UHGV virus genome: UHGV-0025826
DNA length: 41,937 nt
Origin: a virus
Strand: one strand, 5' to 3'
Each line of letters opens with the position of its first letter. The stretch's first letter is position 1. The position numbers and the translations under genes are program-made. This document shows, piece after piece, positions 198 through 27,158 of the stretch. The notes beneath the pieces were generated by a model that worked only from the letters and a program-made list of their open reading frames with translations, made no database searches and was not told the origin of the DNA.

Positions 198-746
198 TCA
201 GCTAGCTGGAAACTTTTTATACAGAGTTGAGAGCCCTACTCCATACGTTTTTGATACGCTTTGTCGTGATTCACCGGTTGCCATCCGCTCCCCCATTTCC
301 CGCCATTGCTCATCCGTGAACTTAGGCCTGCGACCACCAACTCGCCCTTTTGCCCTGGCTACGGCCAGCCCTGCTAAGGTACGTTCGCTATTAAGATCAG
401 ATTCATATTGTGCTGCGGAAAGGATGTTACGAAAGTTATAGCGGCCGCTGGCTGTTTTGAGATCCACGCCATCGGTAATACTGCGGAAGTTGATACCCTT
501 TTCCTGTAACTGCTGGAACATCAACAGCGCATGCAGAACGTTGCGGCCTATCCTGTCCAGCTTCCAGACCACCAGTTCATCCCCCGGCTGCATAGTGGCG
601 ATCAGCCGTTTTAGAACCGGCCGATTCGATTTCCTCCCGCTGGCATGCTCTTCAAAAATTTTCTCACAACCCGCTGACTTGAGCGCCGTTAGTTGCAATT
701 CAGTGTCCTGGTGGTTTGTTGATACTCGGGCATAACCGTAAATCAT
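198..746 (-). CDS. Serine recombinase, DNA invertase (Hin/Gin/Cin/Pin family)
   Basis: 182 aa; MIYGYARVSTNHQD...GDELVVWKLDRIGR...GRRPK...LSTLYKK matches the invertase catalytic domain and C-terminal HTH; lies next to the invertible fibre segment. Confidence 0.9.
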   Translation of the reverse strand: MIYGYARVSTNHQDTELQLTALKSAGCEKIFEEHASGRKSNRPVLKRLIATMQPGDELVVWKLDRIGRNVLHALLMFQQLQEKGINFRSITDGVDLKTASGRYNFRNILSAAQYESDLNSERTLAGLAVARAKGRVGGRRPKFTDEQWREMGERMATGESRQSVSKTYGVGLSTLYKKFPAS

Positions 747-831: not shown

Positions 832-1512
832 GCCAGATTCTCTGGTCGTTTGTTAAACACGAATATTTTTAAAAGCTCTGGAAAATATATCCCAACACCA
901 GGGACAAAAAAGATAAGGGTCATTGCCTCTGGTGGCGGTGGCGGCGGCGGTGGGGTTCCTGAAACAACAGAAAATCAGCAGGCAACAGCCGGAGCTGGAT
1001 TGAGCGGCGCATTTATTGAAGCATTTTTCGAGGTTGATAATGATTTCGAAGTCAACGTTATTATCGGTGCTGCAGGTAAAGGTGGGGGAGCCGGAAGAAA
1101 TTCAGGTAGTGAAGGTGGCACAACTTATTTCGGTTCCATGATAACTGCACCTGGTGGTACAGGCGGTGGCGCGGGGGGAGCATCTGCAAACACATCATAT
1201 ATTCAGGGTATTTCATGGGGTGCCAGTCCGACATCGTCCGGTACTGTACTAAGAGCATTTCGCTGTAGTGCAAAAACACCAGGAGCAATGGTTATCTCTG
1301 TTAAAGCTGTAGCAGGTGGTACCGGGGGGGATACACCATTAGGTTCAGGCGGTATAGGTGGTGCAAGTTCTTCATCATTCAGCGGACGTGGTGGTGGTAA
1401 AGCTGAGGGCTTTGGTGCTGGCGGAGGCGGAGCCTGCGCACCTGCTGGAAGTGAGGCTCAATCGGGAGGTGACGGTGCCCCGGGAATAGTTATTGTTGAG
1501 GAGTATGCCTGA
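814..1512 (+). CDS. Alternative tail fibre C-terminal domain (Gly-rich), silent in this orientation
   Basis: Frame is open from a stop at 811-813 with no ATG or RBS; begins GLGEAR directly after the crossover core, the same six residues that follow the core in the minus-strand fibre gene. Confidence 0.55.
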   Translation, partial: KVGLGEARFSGRLLNTNIFKSSGKYIPTPGTKKIRVIASGGGGGGGGVPETTENQQATAGAGLSGAFIEAFFEVDNDFEVNVIIGAAGKGGGAGRNSGSEGGTTYFGSMITAPGGTGGGAGGASANTSYIQGISWGASPTSSGTVLRAFRCSAKTPGAMVISVKAVAGGTGGDTPLGSGGIGGASSSSFSGRGGGKAEGFGAGGGGACAPAGSEAQSGGDGAPGIVIVEEYA

Positions 1513-1778
1513 TGAGTAATTTTGCTCTGATTGAACATGGCGTGGTGAAAAATATTATTATCTGGGATGGAGAGGGTGATTTATTCTCTAATTGCGAAAT
1601 TATAAATATTGATCATATAGATGCAGGCGTCGGTTGGTTCTATTCTGACGGAGAGTTTATAGCACCACCGGAACCGGAAATGACTGAATATGATGTTGGT
1701 AATATCGACGCGGTGATGGAAGCAGATACCAGCACCGCGCCGGGGGTTATCTGGCCAGTTCCACCTGAGATGGTTTAA
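1512..1778 (+). CDS. Putative tail fibre assembly/chaperone protein of the silent orientation
   Basis: 88 aa; start overlaps the upstream stop (TGATG); 3' end overlaps the minus-strand partner convergently; call is by position. Confidence 0.35.
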   Translation: MSNFALIEHGVVKNIIIWDGEGDLFSNCEIINIDHIDAGVGWFYSDGEFIAPPEPEMTEYDVGNIDAVMEADTSTAPGVIWPVPPEMV

Positions 1779-1944
1779 TCTCAATCAGAATGGGTTCGCC
1801 CTTCTTGTTAACAGATATTTCCATTCCTTCAGGGATTTCAGATGCAGTAAAAAACCAGTTATCTTCTGGTAATTCCACAGCCCCGGTCACGTCATGAAGA
1901 CCGGGGATTACTTCAGTCAAAGTAACAGGATTAAACAGGCGCAC
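1747..1944 (-). CDS. Putative tail fibre assembly/chaperone protein of the expressed orientation
   Basis: Frame open to 2034; GTG at 1944-1942 with GGAGAG 6 nt upstream lies just after the fibre stop; an alternative ATG is at 2007. Confidence 0.3.
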   Translation of the reverse strand: MRLFNPVTLTEVIPGLHDVTGAVELPEDNWFFTASEIPEGMEISVNKKGEPILIEIKPSQVELAR

Positions 1945-2668
1945 AATAAACTCTCCAGGAAAAAGCACTTGTTGATGGTCTTCCGTCGTACATCTGGCAG
2001 CGGACATAAAAACCTGTATTACTGACCTGGTCATCCACGATCATTGAAACGTGAACGTTATTAGGTGTGGCTTCGTAATCTGTTCTTATTCTTTCCGCTA
2101 TGCTGATAAAACGTGAAAGTTTAGGTAGTGCAATTGGATAAACGACTTTAGCCAGCCCATTATCATTGGAACCACCAGTTCCAAATACTTCTATTGCACC
2201 ATCTGACCAGCGTATCCATGCACCATTGACATTAGCTCCTCGCTGAATGACATATCTGGCTTCTCCCAAACCAAGGTTTGCGAGACCGTTTTTTGACGTT
2301 AATACAGGAGTCCATTTTGCTGATGGCGGCTGGCTACCAATATTTGCATTTTGTAAGGACTGATAAGATTCACCGTTATGTGTGCAGATCGAACCGATAT
2401 GATATTCCTGTTCTGCATGCCACTCTGGAACCCCCATTTGGTGCTGATACGCAATGAACTGACTCATTGCATACATTGCCGCATTGAAGTCCTCAAGCGA
2501 GGGGTGTTCGGAAGCGCCAACAATGCCCCATCCGCGAAGGAAAGATGCCGTAATTTGCGAGGTCAGGTCATCCGCCTGATTTGTTCCACCAAACACGGTT
2601 CTTTCCATTCCCTGTGCATCAGAGGCAAAAGCCCGAACATCTCCCTGATATCGTACAATCTTAGACAT
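1931..2668 (-). CDS. Tail fibre protein (constant N-terminal part plus currently expressed variable C-terminus)
   Basis: 245 aa; the crossover site lies in-frame inside the gene (..KNGLANL|GLGEARYVIQRG..); follows the baseplate genes. Confidence 0.6.
   Translation of the reverse strand: MSKIVRYQGDVRAFASDAQGMERTVFGGTNQADDLTSQITASFLRGWGIVGASEHPSLEDFNAAMYAMSQFIAYQHQMGVPEWHAEQEYHIGSICTHNGESYQSLQNANIGSQPPSAKWTPVLTSKNGLANLGLGEARYVIQRGANVNGAWIRWSDGAIEVFGTGGSNDNGLAKVVYPIALPKLSRFISIAERIRTDYEATPNNVHVSMIVDDQVSNTGFYVRCQMYDGRPSTSAFSWRVYCAPV
2261..2286. other. hix/gix-like 26-bp crossover site, right boundary, inside the tail fibre gene
   Basis: ttctcccaaacc-aa-ggtttgcgagac; inverted copy of the site at 806-831. 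Confidence 0.6.
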
Positions 2669-3383: not shown

Positions 3384-4561
3384 TGGACCACCTCGTTAAC
3401 GTCTATATTTTCCACACTCAACGTGAACTTTCCCTGAAAGCCTGGCGATAACTCAGCATCGGTGTAATCTGCCCCATTACTGCTAATTTGCAGATTGGTC
3501 AGCACAAAATTTACCCGTCCTACCCCATACCCATTCTCATAAAATTCATTGGCATCCACAGACTCACCAATATGCATGGTGCGTGATGCAAGAGATTTTT
3601 TGAGAGTATCGATATCTATCGGTTCGCTTTGAATCTTCCGGCGGGCATTAAGCCTGATATGAAGCGGCTTATAGATGGGCCGATCAAACTGAAGTTCATG
3701 GGCTATCAGAAATGAAGTGCCGTCAGGCCGAATCAGGGTCTCGGTAAAACGTCCGGTTATGCTGCCTTTCGTTCCCGTTCCACCGCCTTTCTGTTTAACC
3801 ATCACCTCCACAATTTCTGAAATCGCTCCCCCCTCAACGACCAGCCATATTGAATTGGCCGGGATACCCGTCGTCGGATTATCAATTTTTGTGTCGTTCT
3901 CTCCGATATTCAGATCAATTACACCTGTCAGTTGAGCAACTTTAGCGAAAACCGCCCCAGTGCTACCTGTTGCCGGGTTCTCAAGCGACCGGTTCCGGCG
4001 TTGCCTGAATTCTTCAGGCGTTTCCTCATCCCGACCGACCACAACCGCGGAATCAGAGATAATGCTCACAATCCCTGGTTCTGGTGTGAGTTGAGTGAAG
4101 GTGTCGTTCACAAGCCCAGTAACTTTCCCAAAGTTTTGAGCAAAAAAGGTGGCTGTTGTGACGCCCGCCGGAACGGTCACGTCCTGTCGGATAGCCCAGA
4201 CCTGATTTGCCTGGTCCCGTATCTTATACCCGCTATAGAGAAGCACCGGCCTGTCTGTTGTGACTTTAAGGTCACGCTGAGACCGGGAGCCGGGGCGAAG
4301 GAAAAGCCCGTGAAGTTTGGCGATAATCTGCTGCATATCACCTGTATTAAAATCGGGGTCCATTTGGGAATAAAGCCATTGCAGCGCGGCTTCAATATCT
4401 GCCCGAGCCTGAGCTTCGATTGCCACGCGTTGACCGTCGGGAGATTCCTGGTCTAAATCGATATCCTGACCATAAATTCCCTTATATCCGTCGCTCAGTT
4501 CCTGAAATAACTCCCGGAGAGTGCTTGTCTCAAGGCCGTTGTCGCTAAACTGTAGTGCCAT
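3380..4561 (-). CDS. Baseplate J-like protein (P2 gpJ / Mu gp47-like)
   Basis: 393 aa; size and position typical of baseplate J in Mu/P2-type tail modules. Confidence 0.7.
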   Translation of the reverse strand: MALQFSDNGLETSTLRELFQELSDGYKGIYGQDIDLDQESPDGQRVAIEAQARADIEAALQWLYSQMDPDFNTGDMQQIIAKLHGLFLRPGSRSQRDLKVTTDRPVLLYSGYKIRDQANQVWAIRQDVTVPAGVTTATFFAQNFGKVTGLVNDTFTQLTPEPGIVSIISDSAVVVGRDEETPEEFRQRRNRSLENPATGSTGAVFAKVAQLTGVIDLNIGENDTKIDNPTTGIPANSIWLVVEGGAISEIVEVMVKQKGGGTGTKGSITGRFTETLIRPDGTSFLIAHELQFDRPIYKPLHIRLNARRKIQSEPIDIDTLKKSLASRTMHIGESVDANEFYENGYGVGRVNFVLTNLQISSNGADYTDAELSPGFQGKFTLSVENIDVNEVVQ

Positions 4562-4925
4562 TCTTCAACGCTCCGTTGACCGGGAAGGTGATCGTCTGCT
4601 GGTCATAGACGGTCTCAATGCTGAGTTCGATTTTTTGTGACCGGGTGGCCTTATTGACCTCCATCGCCAGAGCGGTAATGCGCATAACCCCATCCGTCGC
4701 CAGCGTCACGCGCTCTATCTCCCGCAGAATCTCCTGCTCGGTGTTTTTCTCTGATAACAGGTAAAGCCAGTCGATGTTGTCATCCATGTTGAGAGGATTA
4801 TCGTTTTTGAACGAGCGGATCCGGCATTTGGCTTTCTGCGCGATAGCAGCACCGCCAGTTATATAGTTTGCCTTCCCGCGCCCAAATCCCCAGTCGTCAT
4901 TTTTATCAAGTGCTGAAACAATCAT
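4545..4925 (-). CDS. Baseplate wedge protein (GPW/gp25-like)
   Basis: 126 aa; upstream of and overlapping the J-like gene. Confidence 0.5.
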   Translation of the reverse strand: MIVSALDKNDDWGFGRGKANYITGGAAIAQKAKCRIRSFKNDNPLNMDDNIDWLYLLSEKNTEQEILREIERVTLATDGVMRITALAMEVNKATRSQKIELSIETVYDQQTITFPVNGALKNGTTV

Positions 4926-5539
4926 GAGATCTCCGTGACAATACCGTTGGTAACTGTGATTGTTTTCCCGTCATCGCTTCGAAATGAACCAGACACCCCA
5001 GACTTACCGCCTGTCTTTACCTGGGAATATTGAAGTACATTCAGAACATCGCATTCTTCCAGAGTCGTCTTACCATCTTTCTGGGTAATATTTCCTGTGA
5101 GGTTTAAATCACCCTCGTGGTCAGAATCCCCCTTCATCATCCTGTTCTTCTTAGGGATATTGATCGCGGTAGCCTGTGGGTTAACCCCACACAGAGCGAA
5201 GCCATCTGAATAATCGTGCATACGCATTTCAAGTGGTGAAACAAAGTCGCTACCCGCATACCAAGCGTCATAACAACGCTCAGAGATAAGGACGAGGCAA
5301 TAGTCACCAGCCGCAATTGGTTCGGCGATATAACTATCACCGCCTTGCAAAATTACCGGGGGGACTTCAATGAACTCTGGGAGTTGCTTGCTGCTCCCTT
5401 TCACAACCCGATTGATAACGGGGACGCAACTGATTGTTTTGTCATTTACAGACGTTATTTTTGCGACAACAATGGTGTGAACATCGGCCAGAGCAAATTC
5501 AACACCCAGGCCGATAGTGTCGTGAAGTTCTTCGATCAT
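4922..5539 (-). CDS. Baseplate assembly/spike protein (P2 gpV / Mu gp45-like)
   Basis: 205 aa; position upstream of the gp25-like gene. Confidence 0.5.
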   Translation of the reverse strand: MIEELHDTIGLGVEFALADVHTIVVAKITSVNDKTISCVPVINRVVKGSSKQLPEFIEVPPVILQGGDSYIAEPIAAGDYCLVLISERCYDAWYAGSDFVSPLEMRMHDYSDGFALCGVNPQATAINIPKKNRMMKGDSDHEGDLNLTGNITQKDGKTTLEECDVLNVLQYSQVKTGGKSGVSGSFRSDDGKTITVTNGIVTEIS

Positions 5540-5654
5540 AAATTAAGCCCATAAAAAACCGCCAGAGTGGGTTCAATGGATGGCTAGATAAATACTCATA
5601 CTAATCGCCGTAGAGCGAACCTGCGCCAGCGTTTAATACTAAGGAGAGTCACTC

Positions 5655-6188
5655 ATGGGATTCAAATTCAGACAGCGCATCAAAATTGCACCAGGCATTC
5701 ATATAAACATAGGTAAAACAGGCATTACTAGCGCATCAATTGGTAAGGCTGGTGCTACCCTGAACGTTGGTAAAAAAGGGGTAAAGGCAACCGCAGGCAT
5801 TCCCGGTACCGGTTTGTCTTACACGAGTGGAAACTTGCTCGCGGGTCAAAAGAACTCCACCGGTAAACACGCTGAGAACGTAGAGGAACAAGCACCTGAG
5901 CGGCTTGGTTTCTTTTCGGACTCAACGTTGTTAGAGGATGGTCAGGAAGATATTCAACCACCTCGCCCATTGGTCATGGTATTAACCCATAAGCAATTTA
6001 GAAAACTATCAACCGAGGAGAAAACGGCATTTAAAAATGCAGGTGGTAAGGTGAAGTTTTCAATAGGCGAGAAAATTTTTATTCTCACAGTCATTATTTT
6101 TGCTCTTGGCTGGCTTTCAGATCGTCACCCACCAGAAAAAACCAATTCCAGCGTAACGCAAGAAGTAAAATCTTCAGTTAACAACTGA
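5655..6188 (+). CDS. DUF4236-like protein with a C-terminal transmembrane segment; opposite-strand moron in the baseplate operon
   Basis: 177 aa; N-terminus MGFKFRQRIKIAPGIHINIGKTGITSASIGKAGATLNVGKKGVKATAGIPGTGLSYT matches the remembered DUF4236 signature; hydrophobic IFILTVIIFALGWL near the C-terminus; AAGGAGAG RBS; looks AT-richer than its neighbours by eye. Confidence 0.6.
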   Translation: MGFKFRQRIKIAPGIHINIGKTGITSASIGKAGATLNVGKKGVKATAGIPGTGLSYTSGNLLAGQKNSTGKHAENVEEQAPERLGFFSDSTLLEDGQEDIQPPRPLVMVLTHKQFRKLSTEEKTAFKNAGGKVKFSIGEKIFILTVIIFALGWLSDRHPPEKTNSSVTQEVKSSVNN

Positions 6189-7121
6189 GTAATTTCCGGC
6201 AGGCTGGCATACCACCTTCTGATACCAGGCTGCCCCGTTGTTCTGCCCGCTGGTTTCAATCTGGTATATCTTATAAACCCCGTTTAACGCGGGGTTCGTC
6301 ACGCTTTCAACAGCGCAAAGCCCACCGATCACCAGCATAGGATTCAGTTTCGTATCGAATACGATCTGCCCTTTCGAGGATTTGGCTAAGGTACTCGAGT
6401 CAGTATCTTTTTTGCCTGCCGGATCCGTATCAGGCTCATTGGTTGGCATCTTGGCTTTCTTCCCCCCGTCATCCTGTGCGCTAATCTTCGTTGCCTGAGG
6501 CGTATTTAGCAGACCGCTACGCGCATTCACGACTGGAATGTTACCCGATGTAACCTCATTAGCCTTGAGGATGTGGACGCGCTCATCTTTGATGAAAAAT
6601 GACTCGTCGGACGCAAGGGTATCGGTAAGAATTTTACTGGAGCTACCTACCAGAACCTTCGGCCTGATGAGTGCTTGTTGCTTCGTCACAGAGCCTTTTT
6701 TCGTGTTTGGCATATCCTGCAAGACAGAATCGACGACCTGATCTTTCCCGCGTACCGTGCGCGATGTGAAAGCGTTGATATAGTCGTGGCCACCGTCTTC
6801 ACATTCCAGGCTGACGATGTGGATCGCCCCCTCACGCTTTACTGCTCCGCTTTTAACCGAACCCTGAAATACCTGGCGCAGCTTGCCGTCGTAACCAACC
6901 TCGAGTCGAACGGGGATATACTTCTCTTCATCTTCGGACTTGAGCAATTGCAGACGCGTGGAAGGCTTTAGCCCGTTGATGGACACACTCAGCTTGCCGA
7001 GTGACTTCTTGTCCACAGTTTCCAGCGCCTTGAATGACACGGTGATCGGTGGCTCGATAATCACTGCTTGATTGCCGATCCCCACCGTCAGCCGATAATC
7101 ACGGTAAAAAGTATCCATCAC
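6174..7121 (-). CDS. Baseplate hub protein (Mu P / P2 gpD-like)
   Basis: 315 aa; position between TMP-proximal tail genes and the spike gene. Confidence 0.45.
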   Translation of the reverse strand: MMDTFYRDYRLTVGIGNQAVIIEPPITVSFKALETVDKKSLGKLSVSINGLKPSTRLQLLKSEDEEKYIPVRLEVGYDGKLRQVFQGSVKSGAVKREGAIHIVSLECEDGGHDYINAFTSRTVRGKDQVVDSVLQDMPNTKKGSVTKQQALIRPKVLVGSSSKILTDTLASDESFFIKDERVHILKANEVTSGNIPVVNARSGLLNTPQATKISAQDDGGKKAKMPTNEPDTDPAGKKDTDSSTLAKSSKGQIVFDTKLNPMLVIGGLCAVESVTNPALNGVYKIYQIETSGQNNGAAWYQKVVCQPAGNYSVVN

Positions 7122-7453
7122 GGCACGTCTCCCCCGCGAATATCAATCATCTCTTCCGGCGTGACCAGATACATTTCGATGCGACCACTGGCGAAGTCGT
7201 CAGCCCGATATGGGTCAATGCCGGAATTGTCAGCGCAAAGTAACACAACGTCGAAAGGCCAGTTCTTGTGCCGAAAATGTAGCGTCCCGAGGGACAGCTT
7301 CACGCCGTCGATGTAATCACCGTTGTACTCCACGCGCATTTTCCACATTTCAACCGTAGGCAGATAACGAATAGTGACCACAGCCTCACCACGGTCAAAA
7401 ATCAGAACATGCCGCTGGATAGGTTCGTCAGTGATGTTGGTTATCGGATCCAT
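7118..7453 (-). CDS. Phage tail protein, unknown function
   Basis: 111 aa; translationally coupled inside the tail operon. Confidence 0.4.
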   Translation of the reverse strand: MDPITNITDEPIQRHVLIFDRGEAVVTIRYLPTVEMWKMRVEYNGDYIDGVKLSLGTLHFRHKNWPFDVVLLCADNSGIDPYRADDFASGRIEMYLVTPEEMIDIRGGDVP

Positions 7454-7465
7454 ACGTTGCTCTCA

Positions 7466-8272
7466 TTAGAATAAAGATTTCGCCGCCCCTTTTAACGAGG
7501 TCATGACTGATTTTGACTGGCTGGTCCCGTTACTTTTTTTAGAATTATCAGCGGGCGTCTGCGCCCCCTTATTAGCAACGCCCGCCGTTTTTGATTTAGC
7601 AGCTGCCGAGGGGGATTTGAAGTGCTGCTCAATCGGTGCGGTAGTCAGTTGCGTGAAGGTGATTTTTGTAAAACTGGCTTCAAACTTAGTTTCCATCGTT
7701 TGATTGTCGGTACTGATGGTCAGGCCGCTTAACGCCATATTTTCATGGGTGCGATAATCCACCTCCACGGAAATAAGCTGCTTGCCGTAGTACACCCCCT
7801 CAATGAAGTCGAGAAATTGCTCGCGTATACCTTTAGCGCCACCAGTAGACGGGTTGCCCACCAGCCCAAACAGGTCGGCTCCTTTATCAGCCAGGCGTTT
7901 TGCCTTTAAGATGGCCTGCTCTGCGCGGTCGGCAATCTCATTCATTTTTTGCAACTGCTGCTGCGTCTTTGCGGGGATGTACTCCAGCACCTCACCATAC
8001 TTCGAATAATCTGGCATCAGGCTAAAAGAAGAGTTTGGTTTCGCATCGACAAAAATATCGGCAACAACACCGCTGATTTTTATCGTCAGCGGGCCATTGA
8101 TAATGTCGTCTGACGCGTTACTGCCATCCTCCAGCACGTCTACAGGAACCTGAGACGGGTATTCAGTAGCATCGCTCACTCGGGCAAACATTGAGAACCC
8201 GCCGATCCCTACCTTTTTAACAGTATCTTTGCCAGAAGATTGCGCCTGCATGAGGCCGTCTAGAATCCCCAT
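7466..8272 (-). CDS. Phage tail protein (possibly DNA-circulation N-like)
   Basis: 268 aa; immediately downstream of the tape measure gene, the position Mu gpN occupies. Confidence 0.4.
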   Translation of the reverse strand: MGILDGLMQAQSSGKDTVKKVGIGGFSMFARVSDATEYPSQVPVDVLEDGSNASDDIINGPLTIKISGVVADIFVDAKPNSSFSLMPDYSKYGEVLEYIPAKTQQQLQKMNEIADRAEQAILKAKRLADKGADLFGLVGNPSTGGAKGIREQFLDFIEGVYYGKQLISVEVDYRTHENMALSGLTISTDNQTMETKFEASFTKITFTQLTTAPIEQHFKSPSAAAKSKTAGVANKGAQTPADNSKKSNGTSQSKSVMTSLKGAAKSLF

Positions 8273-10134
8273 TACCGACCTCCTCTGCCACTCAACCGGT
8301 TGGCATCCTTCATGTTTTGTTGCAGGCTATCTGCCGCAGTATTCCCGGCGACAACCGGATCGGATGTGTTGATGTGAATCGTGTTCTGCTGGCTGACGCT
8401 TGAATTGCTTGTCACGCCACCACCACCGAGTCCCACCGCAGCATTCATGCCGTAAGGAATACCACCAGGACTCATGCCGCCGTTACCGCCGCCGGTTACT
8501 CCCTGCTGCTGTTCATCCTCACCGACCCCGAAGAATGACTTTGTCGCATTCCAGGCATTTGAAGCAGCGTTGCTGATAATATTGCTGATGTATTCCCCCA
8601 GCCCAGCAAAGATGTTTTTCGCCCAGTCAATAAAAGCCGTGAATGGTTTTTTCATCAGTTCGACGCCGTTATCGAAGATTTTTACCACATCCCCCCATGC
8701 ACCTTCAAAATCGCCAGCGACTAACTTCCATAGTGCTGAGAACATCAGCTTCGTGTTTTCGATGGCAGTAGTGAATACATCAACGACAAACGCGCCGGCA
8801 TCGCCAAACACGTATTTAATCGCATCACCAACGACACCAAATGCACCAGTGATAAACGCTATAAGAGAATCAAAGATATTCTGCGCATCCTTCATCGCAC
8901 CCTGAAAATCACCCGTAAACGCACCTGTGATGAGATGCCACACCATCCTGAACATGGAGGCAATCGCATCAGCAAGCGGTTTAAACACGCCAATAGCGTA
9001 GTTTATGAAAGCCATGAGCGACGCTTTCGCCTCTTTCAGTGCGGGAACAATATCTATTCCCCAGTTATCTTTGAAGAAATCAGCAATAACGCTTTGGCCA
9101 CCTTCCATAGCCGTCAGCAAATCATCGATAACAAGAACGACAGCGATAATGGCGGCAGTGATCAGTACGACAGGAGAGAATATGGTTGCCAGCACCGCTC
9201 TAAGTCCTATAGCAGCAATTTTCCAGGCTACAAATCCGGTGGTAATAAGACCAATAATCGGCAGGAAGCGACGGATCATACCCATAACGGAGAAGATAAT
9301 TTCCCCAAGATGGGCCAGCCCGTTTTTGATGAGATCCTTATTAGCAATGAGAATGTCCGTAAACCCATCCACCAGGTCTTTCAGTACCGGCACAAATCCG
9401 ACGGCAACCTGAAATTTGATACCATCAAAGCCTTTCCCCAGCGTTGTCAGAGAATCGTTGTAGGCTGCAAACTGATCGGCCTGGTCTTGCGTGACAACAC
9501 CAAGCGCCTCGGCCTTGTTCTGCAACGAAGATATTTCTTCGCCCGTCATGGATAGCAACTGCACCATGGAACGGTCGATACCCATCTTATCCAGAACAGA
9601 AAACTTCTCTGCCTGGCTCATGCCGTGCAGTTTGTCGGCCAGTTCACGAAATATCACATCGGAGTTTTTTACCTGCCCGTTCATATCCTTGAACTGAAGG
9701 CCCAGCCTTTCCGCAACGTCTTTCGCCTCCCCCTCACCGGTGGAAACGAACTCCCCCACTCTTTTTGTCATCTCACCTAGCGAAGCCTGCAACGCATCAA
9801 CACTTGAGCCATTTACAGACGCCGCGTAACCCAGTGACTGAACGGTCTCGATCGCCACCCCCGTTTCCCGGGAGAACTGGACCAGCGGATCAATAGACTG
9901 ACTGACAGACGTCACCCAGCCAGCAACCCCCGCAGCCGAACCGGCGATAGCGGCTCCAAGCCCGGCAAGCAAACCAATAGATGCTTTCAGATTTGCATTG
10001 AAGGTTTCCTGCGGCGCCAGATTACCGATAAAACCGAATTTGGTAATAAGCTCGTTAACTATCGCCATTCCGCGCCTTCTCCATCTCGTAGTGTTGAATG
10101 TCTGCGCTGATATTCTCGAACTCAAGCATGTCAA
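8272..10134 (-). CDS. Tail tape measure protein
   Basis: 620 aa; Gly/Ala-rich with long central hydrophobic segments; between chaperone and baseplate genes; start may be the internal ATG at 10068. Confidence 0.8.
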   Translation of the reverse strand: MTCLSSRISAQTFNTTRWRRRGMAIVNELITKFGFIGNLAPQETFNANLKASIGLLAGLGAAIAGSAAGVAGWVTSVSQSIDPLVQFSRETGVAIETVQSLGYAASVNGSSVDALQASLGEMTKRVGEFVSTGEGEAKDVAERLGLQFKDMNGQVKNSDVIFRELADKLHGMSQAEKFSVLDKMGIDRSMVQLLSMTGEEISSLQNKAEALGVVTQDQADQFAAYNDSLTTLGKGFDGIKFQVAVGFVPVLKDLVDGFTDILIANKDLIKNGLAHLGEIIFSVMGMIRRFLPIIGLITTGFVAWKIAAIGLRAVLATIFSPVVLITAAIIAVVLVIDDLLTAMEGGQSVIADFFKDNWGIDIVPALKEAKASLMAFINYAIGVFKPLADAIASMFRMVWHLITGAFTGDFQGAMKDAQNIFDSLIAFITGAFGVVGDAIKYVFGDAGAFVVDVFTTAIENTKLMFSALWKLVAGDFEGAWGDVVKIFDNGVELMKKPFTAFIDWAKNIFAGLGEYISNIISNAASNAWNATKSFFGVGEDEQQQGVTGGGNGGMSPGGIPYGMNAAVGLGGGGVTSNSSVSQQNTIHINTSDPVVAGNTAADSLQQNMKDANRLSGRGGR

Positions 10135-21607: not shown

Positions 21608-22168
21608 ATGAAATACTCACAGCAAGAAAAACTACAGATCATGATGCTCAGTGATATTCACCGAGCATTAGAAATTGAAAACTCATTTGATCCTGACCTC
21701 ATTGACGAAGCAGTGAGCACGGATAACTACTGGGCTTTATCCTGGGAATACCCAGGCCTTCAAGATGAAGAAGAGGAGACCCCCTGGGAAGTCCAGCTTT
21801 TCGTTGATACCTATGATATGTATGACATTCTCCAATACACATACGAACGATTCAGTGCGGAAGACAAAGCAGAGGTTGCCAAATCTATTCGTAATTTCGA
21901 TGAGAAATTATCACTCACATTCCCCGGATTTGACGGTAACAACGAATCAAAGTTTCTTTTGATTGGTAGTTTATTGAAACGAATGGGACGGTTTAGCGGC
22001 AAAGACGATCTCACCCGGAACTCTCACATGCCCTCTGTTGCAATTTACCAACGTATGCTTGAAGTTTTCCTTCCTGCCAGAGCTAAGAATTGGGTTCACA
22101 ATGTGGGCATTACTAAACATGATTTTATCGATACACTCAACGCGAGAGTGCATCCAGAAAATCGTTAA
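21608..22168 (+). CDS. YfbU-family (UPF0304) protein; opposite-strand moron between lysis and packaging genes
   Basis: 186 aa; recalled E. coli YfbU shares DxYxMY..L, FLGFD-like and a C-terminal YQRML.V segment (here VDTYDMYDIL, TFPGFDG, YQRMLEVF). Confidence 0.5.
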   Translation: MKYSQQEKLQIMMLSDIHRALEIENSFDPDLIDEAVSTDNYWALSWEYPGLQDEEEETPWEVQLFVDTYDMYDILQYTYERFSAEDKAEVAKSIRNFDEKLSLTFPGFDGNNESKFLLIGSLLKRMGRFSGKDDLTRNSHMPSVAIYQRMLEVFLPARAKNWVHNVGITKHDFIDTLNARVHPENR

Positions 22169-22173
22169 ACGTT

Positions 22174-22195
22174 AATGCCCGCAAATGCGGGCATT
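22174..22195. terminator. Bidirectional terminator hairpin between convergent YfbU-like and Rz genes
   Basis: Palindrome aatgcccgcaaatgcgggcatt with AT-rich flanks on both sides. Confidence 0.5.
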
Positions 22196-22721
22196 ATTCA
22201 TCATGGCGCCTTATTACTTTGTCGTAGGTGCGCTCACAGGTATTTCCGGCGACATAACGCTCATCAGCCTCTTTTGCGAATTTTCCCGCCAGATCGTCAG
22301 CTTCGCTGAGCAACTGGGCGAGCAATATTCCGGCCTCGGCTTTTGCCTGGCTTGTTGCTGCAATTGCGGAAATTCTGCCTGTTTCACTTGTTGCGAGCTG
22401 CCGTTGTATTTCGGCGAGCTGCTGTTGCAACCCACTGCGAGCACGCTTAGCAGCGTTAGCATCAGCCTGTACTTTTGCCAGTTCTTCATCGGCTTTCTCT
22501 CGTTCTTCATCTACGGCCCGCTGGCGGCGCTGCTCTTCTGCTCTTTCGGTTACTTCACGCTGCAATGTAGTGGTCGCATCAGTAAGGTCACGTTGTGCCC
22601 ACTGCAATTTCCAGGATGAGTCCGCCTCCTGATACCCGCGTGAATAACACCAGTACGCGACCGCGCATAACAAAAAAGCCACCAGCAGTATTTCTGCCAG
22701 CGGCTTCCAGTAAGCCCTCAC
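22194..22721 (-). CDS. i-spanin (Rz-like)
   Basis: Start set to GTG at 22721 overlapping the endolysin stop (GTGA); N-terminal TM (LAEILLVAFLLCAVAYW) then long coiled coil. Confidence 0.6.
   Translation of the reverse strand: MRAYWKPLAEILLVAFLLCAVAYWCYSRGYQEADSSWKLQWAQRDLTDATTTLQREVTERAEEQRRQRAVDEEREKADEELAKVQADANAAKRARSGLQQQLAEIQRQLATSETGRISAIAATSQAKAEAGILLAQLLSEADDLAGKFAKEADERYVAGNTCERTYDKVIRRHDE
22214..22489 (-). CDS. o-spanin (Rz1-like lipoprotein) embedded in the +1 frame of Rz
   Basis: MKNWQKYRLMLTLLSVLAVGC: basic n-region, hydrophobic core and lipobox-like AVGC; fully nested in the Rz gene; exact start uncertain. Confidence 0.45.
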   Translation of the reverse strand: MKNWQKYRLMLTLLSVLAVGCNSSSPKYNGSSQQVKQAEFPQLQQQARQKPRPEYCSPSCSAKLTIWRENSQKRLMSVMSPEIPVSAPTTK

Positions 22722-23257
22722 TGGTCTATCCCCCAGCACGTTAACGCGCTTTCCTGGTCTCGTCGCTCTACCTGACCATAGCACCCATTTTTCTGGCCTT
22801 TGGTCAGACGACAGTCGCGGCCACCATCTTTAATCCACCAGCGAATAGCTTCACATGCGCCTTTACGGTCGCCAGCATTAATTCGCTTATAGAACGTAGA
22901 CGGGAAACATTTCCCGGGGCCGATGTTATAGGGGCAGAAAGATGCGATCCCGGCTTTCTGTGGTTCGGTCAGTGGTACTTTGATATTTCGGTCAACCCAC
23001 GCCAGCGCCTTGTCGCGTTCAATGGCATTCACCTGGGCACATTTCTCAGCTGACAACTTCATACCCTGAACTACCGGCTTGCCGTCAACCGTGGTAGCTC
23101 CCCGGCAAATCGTCCAGATACCGCTGCCATCTTTGTACGCTGTAAGGCTGTTTCCCTCTTTCTCATTCAGAAACTGATCGAGAATGACGGATGCTGGCGC
23201 ACCAGCAAGTACCAACCCCAGAACAGCAGCACTTAATTTTGCTCTGGATCCCATCAC
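22718..23257 (-). CDS. SAR endolysin (GH24 lysozyme, phage 21 R-like)
   Basis: 179 aa; Gly/Ala-rich N-terminal signal-anchor LSAAVLGLVLAGAPASVIL; catalytic E-x8-D-x5-T (EGNSLTAYKDGSGIWT). Confidence 0.85.
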   Translation of the reverse strand: MMGSRAKLSAAVLGLVLAGAPASVILDQFLNEKEGNSLTAYKDGSGIWTICRGATTVDGKPVVQGMKLSAEKCAQVNAIERDKALAWVDRNIKVPLTEPQKAGIASFCPYNIGPGKCFPSTFYKRINAGDRKGACEAIRWWIKDGGRDCRLTKGQKNGCYGQVERRDQESALTCWGIDQ

Positions 23258-23556
23258 TCACCTTCCTTTTGTAATGCCTCAACGACCACGCTTGCAGCCG
23301 CAGGACGTTCGTGAAGGGGTTTATCACCAACGCCTTTCAGGTAGTCATTAACCATTTTTGTTCGCTTCTCGTCCTCTCTACGCCTGCGGTGGGCATCCAC
23401 GCGACCATTGACATAGGAGGCAAACGAGATAAGCAGACCAGCGGCGCCAAAGAACATGAACACCATATCCTGAGTGGTAAAACCAATGGCTGACGCCAGA
23501 GCTGCTACCCACGCGAAGAACTGCGTGAAAATGTTCCCTGAATCATTCATTTTCAT
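23254..23556 (-). CDS. Holin (class II, pinholin-type) with dual-start MKM motif
   Basis: 100 aa; two hydrophobic segments and charged C-terminus; begins MKM as in lambda S; stop overlaps endolysin start. Confidence 0.7.
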   Translation of the reverse strand: MKMNDSGNIFTQFFAWVAALASAIGFTTQDMVFMFFGAAGLLISFASYVNGRVDAHRRRREDEKRTKMVNDYLKGVGDKPLHERPAAASVVVEALQKEGE

Positions 23557-26468: not shown

Positions 26469-27158
26469 TTAGTTCATTTTTGCAATACCTTGCTGATAGT
26501 TTGCTGCCTTTTGTTGTGAACGTGATCGCGAAACATGAAGTAGCGCCTTGGAGTCGAGTCCCTTATACAGGCTGATAATTACATTGTAATGTTCCACGTA
26601 ATTTTGAGACCAGTTTGTTTTGTTAACTCCCACCAGCGCAGCCAGATCACCATATTGATAGACATCACGCCCAGCCAATTCAGCCTTCACATCCTGTGCC
26701 GCCAGCCAGATAAGCTGTCGCAACCGTTCGACGGTCTTCTTCGCCACCTTCCTCCCGGCCAGATGCTCGCAAAATTTCGACCACGCCCACTGAGTAATCA
26801 GCACCTGATTATCCCAACTCACATTCTCGCTATAGTTCCATAGCAACCAGGCCTTCTGGTGTTCTTCGAGCGTCATCAGTGCGCGGCGCCACGATGCCGT
26901 TGAATACTCAACCGGTTGCACCAAGGGAATATGCGAACCCTTGGTATGCGACTGTTTGCCGGGAATCGGTGGGTTATCAAGCGTAATCATTTTCCCGGTC
27001 ACTTCATCCAATATTCGAGGCTTCTTACGTTTAAACGTTCCCGTATCAAACTGCGCGTTCTCAAGCCACGCCATCAACTGCCCTTTCGTCGCACCACTTA
27101 AATCGGCGGTAGCCACCATCAGCTGCTGGCGCACGTATTCGAGGAATTGAGTGTTCAT
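26469..27158 (-). CDS. Putative late-gene antiterminator (Q position; not lambda Q family)
   Basis: 229 aa; last gene of the nin-like operon, immediately upstream of the late leader; no similarity to recalled lambda Q. Confidence 0.4.
   Translation of the reverse strand: MNTQFLEYVRQQLMVATADLSGATKGQLMAWLENAQFDTGTFKRKKPRILDEVTGKMITLDNPPIPGKQSHTKGSHIPLVQPVEYSTASWRRALMTLEEHQKAWLLWNYSENVSWDNQVLITQWAWSKFCEHLAGRKVAKKTVERLRQLIWLAAQDVKAELAGRDVYQYGDLAALVGVNKTNWSQNYVEHYNVIISLYKGLDSKALLHVSRSRSQQKAANYQQGIAKMN

What the first reader, a model, noticed from the sequence alone, without database searches (positions are those of the whole stretch)
5655..6188. Opposite-strand DUF4236-like membrane protein inside the baseplate operon
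All tail and baseplate genes are on the minus strand and translationally coupled, but one plus-strand gene with its own strong RBS is wedged between the baseplate hub and spike genes. The protein starts with the Gly/Lys-rich DUF4236-type signature and ends with a hydrophobic helix. It looks AT-richer than its neighbours by eye. Morons of this kind in structural operons are often lysogen-expressed and encode exclusion, defence or virulence functions.
Basis: partly seen in the sequence, partly recalled or inferred. Interest (0 to 1): 0.6.

Follow-up and report, generated by a model that had tools for sequence, protein, structure and literature searches.

The report
Membrane-protein moron inside prophage baseplate operon
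A small membrane-protein gene of unknown family (DUF4236) sits backwards between two baseplate genes of an E. coli prophage, in a slot where related phages carry other envelope-protein genes or nothing, so it is swappable accessory cargo, most likely a prophage-expressed barrier against infection by other phages, though that function is untested.

Summary
ORF 5655-6188 (+) is a real 177-aa gene under purifying selection. It has an AAGGAG ribosome-binding site and lies between the baseplate hub (6174-7121, -) and spike (4922-5539, -) genes. It matches Pfam DUF4236 (E 5e-19), has one C-terminal transmembrane helix, and has lower GC than the window (43.6% vs 50.4%).

Of 57 distinct hub-anchored relatives, only 23 carry DUF4236. 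The rest carry other small envelope proteins, one of them matching a "Sie-like" PHROG, or nothing. Outgroup phages have hub and spike overlapping. So the gene is accessory cargo in a hotspot, not a structural gene.

In Salmonella and Yersinia relatives the gene lies directly downstream of an mnt-like repressor, beside arc and ant. That is the layout of P22 immI, where sieA occupies this position.

"Mu-like" is wrong. The prophage has lambdoid control with a Q antiterminator and an E217/DUF3383-type contractile tail.

Best reading: an inner-membrane protein with its N-terminus in the cytoplasm, expressed from the prophage and acting as a superinfection-exclusion-type barrier. Expression and function are inferred only. 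I found no promoter, no known defence family and no fold match. It is a moderately interesting new candidate of a known kind.

The parts
5655..6188 (+). DUF4236-TM gene, 177 aa plus stop. It is identical to RefSeq WP_000505900.1.
   Evidence: ORF listing. Pfam DUF4236 E 4.9e-19. phrog_18347 E 5.6e-79, unknown function. RefSeq annotation. dN/dS 0.04-0.19.
5641..5646 (+). Shine-Dalgarno AAGGAG, 8 nt upstream of the ATG.
   Evidence: Read from the sequence. (T/C)A(A/G)G(G/C)A(G/A) is kept at this position in most homologous loci.
5661..5825 (+). DUF4236 module (residues 3-57). It is a six-strand amphipathic beta-meander with GKxG-type turns. Over residues 1-58 the net charge is +9, with no acidic residue and 11 Gly. 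It is predicted to be cytoplasmic.
   Evidence: Pfam full-length match. AlphaFold strands 7-57 with pLDDT about 86. Composition. dN/dS 0.03-0.05.
5829..5978 (+). Variable acidic linker (residues 59-108), predicted disordered. It is partly deleted in some homologues.
   Evidence: Alignment A1: 28-residue deletion in P0016 and P0018. pLDDT below 50. dN/dS 0.13-0.32.
5979..6074 (+). Conserved juxtamembrane motif LTxKQFRKLSxEEKKAFKxAGGKVKFSxGEK (residues 109-140). It is specific to this lineage and also occurs without DUF4236.
   Evidence: Invariant K113, L118, S119, F126, G130, G131, K132, S136, K140. Only 4 true clusters among 1.84 billion representative proteins. Proteins holding only this motif and the TM helix occur in L060, L078 and L086.
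6075..6125 (+). Single transmembrane helix (residues 141-157). A 20-residue polar C-terminal tail follows (6126-6185), predicted to be periplasmic.
   Evidence: Hydropathy. AlphaFold helix 137-157. The N-in/C-out topology is inferred from +5 charge before the helix, and from homologues that add a C-terminal domain with a Cys pair.
5540..5654 (+). 115-nt spacer between the spike start codon and the DUF4236 start. Its last ~50 nt are homologous to the mnt-to-DUF4236 spacer of the immI-type variants. No sigma-70 match of 9/12 or better lies inside it.
   Evidence: Alignment of upstream regions. Promoter scans.
5553..5573 (-). Decayed copy of an intrinsic terminator on the tail-gene strand (CCCAC-TCTG-GCGG + T6), about 14 nt before the spike ATG. 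Relatives with same-strand cargo or ant keep an intact version.
   Evidence: Slot-end comparison. Canonical copies have an 8-9 bp stem, T7 and about -11 to -13 kcal/mol, while the window's stem is disrupted.
5445..5473 (+). The only sigma-70-like site upstream on the + strand (TTTACA-17-AACAAT, 9/12). It lies inside the spike coding region and is a weak candidate promoter.
   Evidence: The count of such sites in the region is no higher than in shuffles, so this is not evidence of function.
6174..6188 (.). 15-nt convergent overlap between the 3' ends of the DUF4236 gene and the hub gene. No canonical terminator follows the DUF4236 stop.
   Evidence: The same 8-15 nt overlap occurs in L003, L006, L009, L010 and L013. 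Terminator scans.
6174..7121 (-). Baseplate hub gene, one boundary of the slot.
   Evidence: Pfam E217_GP41 and phrog_196 'baseplate hub'.
4922..5539 (-). Membrane-puncturing spike gene, the other boundary of the slot.
   Evidence: Pfam PF18352 N-terminal domain. RefSeq 'membrane-puncturing spike protein'.

Best explanation
The gene is horizontally exchanged accessory cargo (a moron). It occupies a hypervariable slot between the hub and spike genes of a lambdoid, Q-regulated temperate myovirus.

Its product is a tail-anchored inner-membrane protein. A basic six-strand DUF4236 beta-meander, an acidic linker and a conserved juxtamembrane motif face the cytoplasm. One transmembrane helix spans the membrane, and a short tail reaches the periplasm.

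I propose that it is made from the repressed prophage and protects the lysogen at the envelope. The most likely mechanism is interference with inner-membrane penetration or DNA entry by superinfecting phages, as with P22 SieA and HK97 gp15. During the prophage's own lytic cycle, Q-antiterminated late transcription runs antisense through the gene and turns it down.

Shown: insertion status, variability of the slot, purifying selection, domain architecture, and linkage to mnt in relatives. Inferred: topology, expression in the lysogen, antisense shut-off, and the exclusion function itself.
For: (1) Insertion. Hub and spike overlap in the outgroup phages fEV-1 and VBM1 and are 35 nt apart in L080.

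(2) Hotspot. Among 57 distinct hub-anchored slots there are about 10 cargo types. Even among modules with hub identity of 90% or more, 13 of 31 carry something other than DUF4236.

(3) Every cargo is an envelope protein: a signal-peptide protein, a lipoprotein, a 2-TM bPH protein or a TM protein. The 245-aa secreted cargo matches phrog_8545 'superinfection exclusion Sie-like' (E 1e-13), and the bPH cargo matches a moron-category PHROG.

(4) In Salmonella (L006) and Yersinia (L011) the gene lies 64-70 nt downstream of an mnt-like gene that is 67% identical to CUS-3 mnt over 45 residues. Arc and a P22-type antirepressor lie opposite. Overlapping divergent promoter-like sites sit between arc and mnt, and there is no terminator before DUF4236. 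This is the P22/CUS-3 immI layout, in which sieA follows mnt. [quoted passage not shown]

(5) GC and GC3 are lower than in the neighbours. dN is 2-6 times that of the hub, while the DUF4236 module stays tightly constrained.

(6) The lysis cassette is complete elsewhere in the prophage.

(7) DUF4236 genes recur next to tail-tip genes in other temperate phages. In Klebsiella GZ7/RCIP0034 a DUF4236-TM gene lies on the opposite strand just before the spike. In an Acinetobacter prophage and in phiCD146 the gene lies just before the tape-measure gene, which is the position of the HK97 gp15 exclusion moron.

(8) A divergent immunity gene that interrupts a Q-driven late operon, and is down-regulated when Q is expressed, is documented for Tai (PMC11364771).
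Against: There is no direct evidence of transcription in a lysogen. No sigma-70 site of 9/12 or better lies in the 115-nt upstream spacer, and the window lacks the mnt promoter present in relatives. There is no own terminator.

The protein shows no sequence or profile similarity to P22 SieA or HK97 gp15. It has no PADLOC or NCBIfam hit and no significant fold match outside DUF4236 itself.

Most of the protein is predicted to be cytoplasmic, with only about 20 residues in the periplasm. That is not the obvious design for blocking an incoming tail.

The positional analogies are suggestive, not diagnostic. The 'Sie-like' label on a different cargo is itself only an annotation.
Confidence: 0.4

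Rival explanations
1. It is a defence that acts after DNA entry, not by exclusion. The protein would be a membrane-anchored abortive-infection or Tai-like factor. Its cytoplasmic DUF4236 module would sense or bind a component of an invading phage, for example a tail-tip protein. It would then block assembly or damage the membrane.
For: Most of the protein, including the most conserved module, is predicted to be cytoplasmic. The layout, a divergent gene interrupting the Q late operon, is the one described for Tai immunity genes. DUF4236 genes recur next to spike or tape-measure genes. In Aliivibrio a DUF4236-SH3 gene lies among toxin-antitoxin and Abi_alpha genes.
Against: There is no PADLOC hit and no recognisable effector or enzymatic domain. 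No adjacent counter-defence gene is evident in the window's slot. The alternative cargos of the slot are periplasmic or lipoproteins, which points to the envelope rather than the cytoplasm.
Confidence: 0.2
2. It is a lysogenic-conversion or host-fitness factor unrelated to phage defence. The small membrane protein would alter envelope physiology, such as stress tolerance, colicin or antibiotic uptake, or host interaction, and so benefit the lysogen.
For: Morons encode a range of host-beneficial functions besides exclusion (PMC3594210). All cargos in the slot are envelope proteins of unknown function. Elsewhere the DUF4236 module is fused to SH3b, zinc-ribbon, TM2, HTH and TPR modules, which suggests a generic adaptor role.
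Against: The gene is tightly linked to tail-tip genes in several phage groups, and to the immI-like immunity cassette in relatives. The C-terminal module is restricted to this phage lineage. That fits a phage-directed role better than a general host function.
Confidence: 0.15
3. It is an accessory protein of the phage's own lytic cycle, for example a factor for lysis timing, a membrane docking site for assembly, or a protein made early to stop secondary adsorption during lytic growth.
For: It is a small single-pass membrane protein. DUF4236 genes also occur in large phages that are probably virulent, namely Klebsiella phages of about 140 kb near nrdA and Brevundimonas phages of about 350 kb. 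In some phages the gene is on the same strand as the tail genes (Pmp2, phiCD146, the Acinetobacter prophage).
Against: In the window the gene is antisense to the Q-driven late operon, so late transcription cannot express it. Holin-like, lysozyme and DUF2514 genes form a complete lysis cassette elsewhere. Relatives with hubs 90-97% identical do without the gene.
Confidence: 0.1
4. It is a structural or assembly component of the baseplate.
For: Only its position between the hub and spike genes.
Against: It is absent from 34 of 57 distinct related modules and from the outgroup phages. It lies on the opposite strand. It is predicted to be a membrane protein with a disordered linker. It shows no similarity to the spike.
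Confidence: 0.02

Closest known systems
P22 SieA (superinfection exclusion A) and the immI region of P22-like phages
   Same: Both are small inner-membrane protein genes that lie backwards inside a Q-dependent late operon between virion genes. In the Salmonella and Yersinia relatives the DUF4236 gene lies directly downstream of an mnt-like repressor, with arc and ant opposite. That is the P22/CUS-3 arrangement in which sieA follows mnt. SieA is expressed from the prophage and blocks DNA injection at the inner membrane (PMC10883804).
   Different: There is no sequence similarity. SieA is a multi-pass membrane protein of 164 aa, whereas this protein has one C-terminal helix and a large cytoplasmic part. 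In the window itself mnt, arc and ant are absent. The host phage is a contractile-tailed phage, not a podovirus, so the target would be different.
HK97 gp15, the founding moron and an inner-membrane exclusion protein
   Same: Both are extra genes inserted between tail genes that are adjacent in relatives, with deviating GC, and both encode a small inner-membrane protein (PMC3594210). DUF4236 genes of phiCD146 and of an Acinetobacter prophage occupy the same position as gp15, between the chaperone and tape-measure genes.
   Different: gp15 is 62 aa with an N-terminal helix and is unrelated in sequence. It lies on the same strand as the tail genes and has its own annotated terminator. The window's gene is on the opposite strand, has no terminator, and lies at the hub/spike junction.
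Tai immunity genes in noncontiguous operons (phi80 TaiEcA)
   Same: Both are prophage immunity genes in divergent orientation that interrupt the Q-controlled late operon. Expression of the Tai gene falls when Q is made (PMC11364771).
   Different: Tai genes lie mostly upstream of the packaging module and act on tail assembly, not at the membrane. They come with an anti-Tai gene in the late operon. No such partner was identified here.
Pfam DUF4236 (PF14020) and PHROG 18347
   Same: The protein is a member by sequence. The full-length Pfam match scores 69 bits against a cut-off of 27, and phrog_18347 matches at E 5.6e-79. As in other members, the module starts at residue 2-3.
   Different: The family has no known function. 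I found one passing mention in the searchable literature. The C-terminal motif plus TM helix of this protein is not part of the Pfam family and is confined to this phage lineage.

Membership tests
Pfam DUF4236 (PF14020) | Match to the family HMM above the gathering score | tested here: met
   69 bits against a cut-off of 27, E 4.9e-19, profile positions 1-55 of 55.
Pfam DUF4236 (PF14020) | Module at the extreme N-terminus, with varied C-terminal extensions | tested here: met
   Residues 3-57 here. Homologues carry TM, SH3b, zinc-ribbon, TM2, HTH or TPR extensions at the C-terminus.
Moron (sense of Juhala/Hendrix; PMC3594210) | Extra DNA between genes that are adjacent in related phages | tested here: met
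   Hub and spike overlap in fEV-1 and VBM1 and are 35 nt apart in L080. The window has 634 nt between them.
Moron (sense of Juhala/Hendrix; PMC3594210) | Base composition differs from the surrounding genes | tested here: met
   GC 43.6% against 50.4% (7th percentile). GC3 39% against 47-64%. The difference is modest.
Moron (sense of Juhala/Hendrix; PMC3594210) | Own promoter | tested here: inconclusive
   No site of 9/12 or better in the 115-nt spacer. The only candidate lies inside the spike coding region (5445-5473). Relatives have an mnt-type promoter region upstream.
Moron (sense of Juhala/Hendrix; PMC3594210) | Own terminator | tested here: not met
   The gene overlaps the hub 3' end by 15 nt. 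No hairpin with a T-run follows on the + strand.
Moron (sense of Juhala/Hendrix; PMC3594210) | Expression from the repressed prophage | not testable with these tools
   Needs strand-specific RNA-seq or a reporter in a lysogen.
P22 SieA family | Sequence homology to SieA | tested here: not met
   Best BLASTP E-value 0.036 over 23 residues.
P22 SieA family | Multi-pass inner-membrane protein | tested here: not met
   There is a single hydrophobic segment here. The SieA sequence shows several.
P22 SieA family | Gene downstream of mnt in an immI-type island within the late operon | tested here: inconclusive
   Met in the relatives L006/L007 and L011/L012. Not met in the window, where mnt, arc and ant are missing and only the spacer homology remains.
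P22 SieA family | Blocks DNA injection by related phages | not testable with these tools
   Needs phage challenge and DNA-entry assays.
HK97 gp15 family | Sequence homology to gp15/YebO-like proteins | tested here: not met
   hhalign probability 0.8%.
Tai immunity systems | Divergent gene interrupting the Q-driven late operon (noncontiguous operon) | tested here: met
   The + strand gene lies within the - strand late operon, and a Q gene is present at 26469..27158.
Tai immunity systems | Homology to Tai proteins and a cognate anti-Tai gene | not tested
No partner gene is evident in the slot.
   The prophage has a tyrosine integrase, RecET, O/P-type replication genes, NinG and Q, with no transposase. 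Its tail genes match E217_GP41, E217_gp31_N/DUF3383 and DUF2612.
Known anti-phage defence systems (PADLOC-DB 2.0) | Match to any defence-protein model | tested here: not met
   0 families at E up to 1.

The most novel reading that the evidence does not exclude
DUF4236 marks a widespread, uncharacterised class of membrane-associated phage-exclusion proteins that travel next to the tail-tip genes (spike or tape measure) of temperate phages. In this lineage the constant part is a lineage-specific juxtamembrane motif plus TM helix. It can carry a cytoplasmic DUF4236 beta-meander, a periplasmic Cys-pair domain, or both. That would mean a modular barrier acting on both faces of the inner membrane against the channel-forming step of contractile-tail infection. 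The hub/spike slot would then be an immunity hotspot comparable to P22 immI, but in myoviruses.
Probability: 0.25. Interest if true: 0.6.

Novelty: new member of a known kind. Interest (0 to 1): 0.42.

Why it matters
If the protein is an exclusion factor, it would give DUF4236 its first function. DUF4236 is a domain family found across bacteria and many phages, and I found essentially no literature on it.

It would also define a moron hotspot at the hub/spike junction of a common group of enterobacterial prophages. At least ten interchangeable envelope-protein cargos in that slot could be tested side by side.

Little is known about how contractile-tailed phages cross the inner membrane. Inhibitors tuned to that step, and the escape mutations they select, are a practical way to map it. 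SieA and gp15 served that purpose for podoviruses and siphoviruses.

If the protein has no phage-related phenotype, this is simply one more small prophage membrane protein of unknown role.

Tried and rejected
(1) Presence/absence from the E. coli hits H6-H8. These are prophage remnants cut by IS1 right after the spike start, so they are uninformative.

(2) Megablast of the region against isolated phages gave no match. The nearest isolated phages are only about 45% identical in the hub.

(3) Defence annotation. PADLOC and NCBIfam gave no hits.

(5) Spike mimicry. Weak fold hits to pyocin and phiKZ spikes prompted a direct comparison with the neighbouring spike protein, which showed no similarity.

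(6) Homology to SieA and gp15: none.

(7) Holin or lysis role. Rejected because a complete lysis cassette lies elsewhere and the gene is antisense to late transcription.

(8) Promoter search. Neither the consensus scan nor a relaxed scan found a good site in the spacer, and the alignment of upstream regions showed no conserved -35/-10 pair.

(9) Literature. Searches for 'DUF4236', 'PF14020' and the RefSeq accession gave one passing mention and otherwise unrelated Plasmodium gene identifiers.

I reran it without them.
Full report
**1. What is in the sequence.**

The ORF 5655..6188 on the + strand encodes 177 aa. AAGGAG lies at 5641-5646, 8 nt upstream of the ATG. The ORF sits between two minus-strand genes. 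One is the spike (4922..5539; Pfam PF18352 spike N-terminal domain). The other is the baseplate hub (6174..7121; Pfam E217_GP41, phrog_196 'baseplate hub'). The surrounding minus-strand tail genes overlap by 1-17 nt. The ORF converges on the hub gene and overlaps its 3' end by 15 nt.

Pfam DUF4236 matches residues 3-57 over the full profile, at E 4.9e-19 and 69 bits against a cut-off of 27. PHROG 18347 (unknown function) matches at E 5.6e-79.

GC is 43.6% against 50.4% for the window, which is the 7th percentile of same-size windows. GC3 is 39% against 47-64% in the neighbouring tail genes.

**2. Where the window comes from.**

The stretch 4500-7500 is 100% identical to prophages in 3 of 5,426 complete E. 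coli genomes, and 99.6% identical in 2 more. RefSeq calls the gene 'DUF4236 domain-containing protein' (WP_000505900.1). The window is 99.56% identical to strain NADC1036 over positions 2259-41937.

That annotation shows a tyrosine integrase, RecE/RecT, CI/Cro-like regulators, O/P-type replication genes, NinG and antiterminator Q (window 26469..27158, -). It also shows a holin-like gene, a lysozyme and a DUF2514 gene (22194..23556, -), followed by terminase, head genes and a contractile tail with a DUF3383/E217-type sheath. There is no transposase.

The phage is lambdoid in its control and is not Mu-like. The nearest isolated phages, Yersinia fEV-1 and Vibrio VBM1, are only about 45% identical in the hub.

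**3. Is the gene real and constrained?**

Full-length homologues occur only in Enterobacterales: E. coli, Kluyvera, Salmonella, Pantoea, Yersinia and Enterobacter. They range from 92% down to 53% identity.

dN/dS against seven diverged loci is 0.04-0.19 for the whole gene. It is 0.03-0.05 for the DUF4236 module, which is as tight as the structural genes. It is 0.13-0.64 for the linker and the C-terminal tail. dN is 2-6 times that of the hub in the same pairs. So this is a functional gene that evolves faster than its neighbours.

**4.

It is not.

I first looked up where homologues of decreasing identity are encoded. All of them sit in the same slot, with the hub on one side, the gene on the opposite strand, and the spike on the other side.

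I then fetched relatives through the hub protein, independently of DUF4236, and measured the slot. Of the 70 hub-anchored loci with both flanks there are 57 distinct slot sequences, and 23 of these carry DUF4236. Counts for the cargos other than DUF4236, which include a few loci fetched through the DUF4236 protein rather than the hub, are:
- a 120-aa signal-peptide protein on the opposite strand (18 distinct slots);
- a 2-TM bacterial-PH-domain protein on the tail-gene strand (7);
- a DUF7424 lipoprotein (4);
- a 245-aa secreted OB-fold protein (2);
- a TM protein that shares only the C-terminal half of the window's protein (2);
- nothing, in L080, where 35 nt separate hub and spike.

Even among modules whose hub is at least 90% identical to the window's, 13 of 31 distinct slots carry another cargo. 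For example, L027 (hub 97%, spike 95%) has the bPH protein, and L030 (hub 95%, spike 99%) has the 120-aa protein.

In the outgroups fEV-1 and VBM1, hub and spike overlap by 8 and 4 nt. The gene is therefore inserted, exchangeable cargo and not a structural component.

**5. What the slot tells us.**

Every occupant is a small envelope protein. The 245-aa cargo matches phrog_8545, annotated 'superinfection exclusion Sie-like' (E 1e-13). The bPH cargo matches phrog_3707 in the moron category.

Many variants end with a canonical intrinsic terminator on the tail-gene strand, for example CCCGC-TTCG-GCGGG followed by T7. It has an 8-9 bp stem, a free energy of about -11 to -13 kcal/mol, and lies about 14 nt before the spike ATG. 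It is present wherever a same-strand cargo or ant precedes the spike. In the DUF4236-only slots, including the window (5553-5573), it has decayed. A terminator inside the late operon fits Q-antiterminated late transcription.

**6. Link to an immunity cassette.**

In Salmonella (L006/L007) and Yersinia (L011/L012) the slot is 2.1-2.5 kb long. Read along the DUF4236 strand, it holds ant (P22_AR_N) and arc on the tail-gene strand, then an mnt-like Arc/RHH gene and DUF4236 on the opposite strand.

The Yersinia Mnt-like protein is 67% identical to the annotated mnt of the P22-like phage CUS-3 over its first 45 residues. Between arc and mnt lie two overlapping, divergent sigma-70-like sites, and these are the only two found in the scanned region. 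No terminator separates mnt from DUF4236.

This is the topology of immI in P22 and CUS-3. There the late operon is interrupted by an opposite-strand island that starts with mnt and continues with small cargo genes, including sieA in P22. [quoted passage not shown]

The last ~50 nt upstream of the window's gene are homologous to the mnt-to-DUF4236 spacer of L007. A 12-mer (CCAGAGTGGGTT) is shared with the sequence just after mnt in L011. The window's slot therefore looks like a derivative that lost mnt, arc and ant. This step is an inference.

**7. The protein.**

Alignment of 20-22 homologues shows four parts:
- the DUF4236 module (1-58). It is nearly invariant, carries a net charge of +9, and has no acidic residue and 11 Gly;
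- a variable acidic linker (59-108). It is predicted to be disordered and is 28 residues shorter in P0016 and P0018;
- a strongly conserved juxtamembrane motif, LTxKQFRKLSxEEKKAFKxAGGKVKFSxGEK (109-140);
- a hydrophobic helix (141-157) followed by a 20-residue polar tail.

AlphaFold2 gives a six-strand beta-meander for residues 7-57 with pLDDT about 86, a small alpha/beta unit for the motif, and one helix at 137-157. Mean pLDDT is 65 because of the linker.

Some homologues of about 250 aa add an ~85-residue C-terminal domain with two cysteines. Others of 140-157 aa lack DUF4236 and consist of the motif, the helix and that domain. The motif and TM helix are therefore the constant core, and the two flanking modules are optional.

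The Cys pair after the helix, together with the +5 charge before it, suggests N-in/C-out topology. This is an inference.

The C-terminal 75 residues, searched alone against 1.84 billion representative proteins, found only 4 true clusters, all of this type.

Outside this lineage DUF4236 is always N-terminal and is fused to SH3b, zinc-ribbon, TM2, HTH or TPR modules.

**8. Comparison with known proteins and folds.**

- PADLOC and NCBIfam gave no match.
- PDB sequences gave no significant match.
- Foldseek against PDB gave nothing with E below 1.
- BFVD returned only other DUF4236 proteins.
- There is no similarity to P22 SieA, HK97 gp15 or the adjacent spike.

The searchable literature holds one passing mention of a DUF4236 protein, in a Salmonella prophage remnant. 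Searches for the Pfam accession and the RefSeq accession found nothing relevant.

**9. DUF4236 genes in other phages.**

Klebsiella phages RCIP0034 and GZ7 are also Q-regulated and have the same tail type. They carry a 105-aa protein made of DUF4236, an acidic linker and a TM helix. Its gene lies on the opposite strand immediately upstream of the spike gene.

In Pasteurella phage Pmp2 a DUF4236 gene follows the E217-type hub and precedes a TM2-domain membrane protein. Fusions of DUF4236 with TM2 exist.

In C. difficile phage phiCD146 and in an Acinetobacter prophage the DUF4236 gene lies between the tail chaperone genes and the tape-measure gene. That is the position of the HK97 gp15 moron, a small inner-membrane exclusion protein (PMC3594210).

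In Aliivibrio a DUF4236-SH3 gene lies among CcdAB, TacAT and Abi_alpha genes.

DUF4236 also occurs in large Klebsiella and Brevundimonas phages away from tail genes. The association with tail-tip genes is therefore recurrent but not universal. I did not test it against a null model.

**10. Mechanism proposed.**

Shown: the gene is an insertion in a hypervariable slot, is under purifying selection, encodes a modular single-pass membrane protein, and is linked to mnt in relatives.

Inferred: the protein is made from the repressed prophage, sits in the inner membrane with DUF4236 in the cytoplasm, and protects the lysogen at the envelope. The most likely mode of action is interference with inner-membrane penetration or DNA entry by phages with a similar tail tip.

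During induction, Q-antiterminated late transcription must cross the gene in antisense to reach the spike, baseplate and fibre genes. That should lower its expression. The same effect has been shown for the divergent Tai immunity gene of phi80 when Q is expressed (PMC11364771).

I put about 0.9 on the gene being accessory cargo, about 0.75 on it being an inner-membrane protein, about 0.6 on expression in lysogens, and about 0.35-0.4 on exclusion at DNA entry.

The main weaknesses are as follows. No convincing promoter lies in the 115-nt spacer; the only 9/12 site, at 5445-5473, lies inside the spike coding region. There is no terminator. Most of the protein faces the cytoplasm.

**11. Rivals.**

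The rivals are a post-entry defence (Abi or Tai-like), a host-fitness factor unrelated to phages, an accessory protein of the phage's own lytic cycle, and a structural role. The structural role is essentially excluded by section 4. The lytic-cycle role is disfavoured by the antisense orientation, the complete lysis cassette elsewhere and the absence of the gene from close relatives. The first two cannot be separated from exclusion without experiments.

**12. Verdict.**

The finding is real, and its core interpretation as a moron in a structural operon is supported. The 'Mu-like' label is wrong, and the function remains a hypothesis.

In kind this is a familiar thing: a prophage moron encoding a small membrane protein. 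The protein family itself is uncharacterised.

The comparison adds three things. It defines an exchange hotspot at the hub/spike junction with about ten alternative envelope cargos. It shows the three-module architecture with a lineage-specific TM core. It shows the link to an immI-like cassette. Together these give a concrete, testable hypothesis for a DUF family.

Interest is moderate, at 0.42.

Noticed in passing
window 21608-22168 (+): This is a second opposite-strand gene inside the late region. It encodes a YfbU-family protein and lies between the lysis cassette and the small terminase gene. The Tai paper reports prophage immunity genes mostly 'upstream of the packaging module' in divergent orientation. 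'YfbU' itself does not occur in that paper.
   Followed up: partly
relatives L055, L066, L069, L065, L082, L070, L062, L050, L088, L053, L007, L012 (slot end); window 5553-5573 (-): An intact intrinsic terminator (8-9 bp stem, T7) lies about 14 nt upstream of the spike start codon, inside the late operon. Late expression of the spike, baseplate and fibre genes must therefore read through it, presumably by Q antitermination. The window keeps only a decayed copy.
   Followed up: partly
loci L016, L030, L032, L044, L045 and others; also L008, L015, L033-L043 together with DUF4236: The commonest alternative cargo is a 120-aa protein with a signal peptide that ends ...ATxCLDMK. It has no Pfam or PHROG match. 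It occurs alone, or as the second gene after DUF4236-TM on the same strand, which suggests a two-gene cassette.
   Followed up: no
L002 (E. coli 1506) 9062-9960, and hits H7 and H8: Three E. coli genomes hold remnants of a related prophage. An IS1 element sits within about 20-30 nt of the spike start, exactly at the slot. Everything from the hub to the head genes is lost, and the spike is joined to RecT and integrase.
   Followed up: no
window 832-2259: The tail-fibre end of the window has no counterpart in the otherwise 99.6%-identical NADC1036 prophage. It lies next to an invertase-type recombinase gene (198..746, -) and holds tail-fibre and assembly genes on both strands. This looks like a swapped or invertible host-range cassette.
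   Followed up: no
window 6198-6235 (+), inside the hub 3' coding region: An inverted repeat (GGCAG-G-CTGG ... CCAG-G-CTGCC) with a 17-nt loop and about -15.8 kcal/mol starts 10 nt after the DUF4236 stop. A second hairpin lies at 6276-6296. Neither is followed by a T-run. Whether they end or stabilise the DUF4236 transcript is unknown.
   Followed up: no
L099 (Aliivibrio fischeri) 6001-6504: A DUF4236-SH3b gene lies in an array of short cassettes that holds CcdAB, a TacA/acetyltransferase pair, Abi_alpha and a nucleotidyltransferase. The array resembles a superintegron or a toxin-antitoxin/defence island.
   Followed up: no
L095 (Pasteurella phage Pmp2) 2474-3680: A DUF4236 gene without a TM helix is immediately followed by a TM2-domain membrane protein. 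Single proteins that fuse DUF4236 with TM2 exist (P0070, P0085). This hints that the two modules work together.
   Followed up: no
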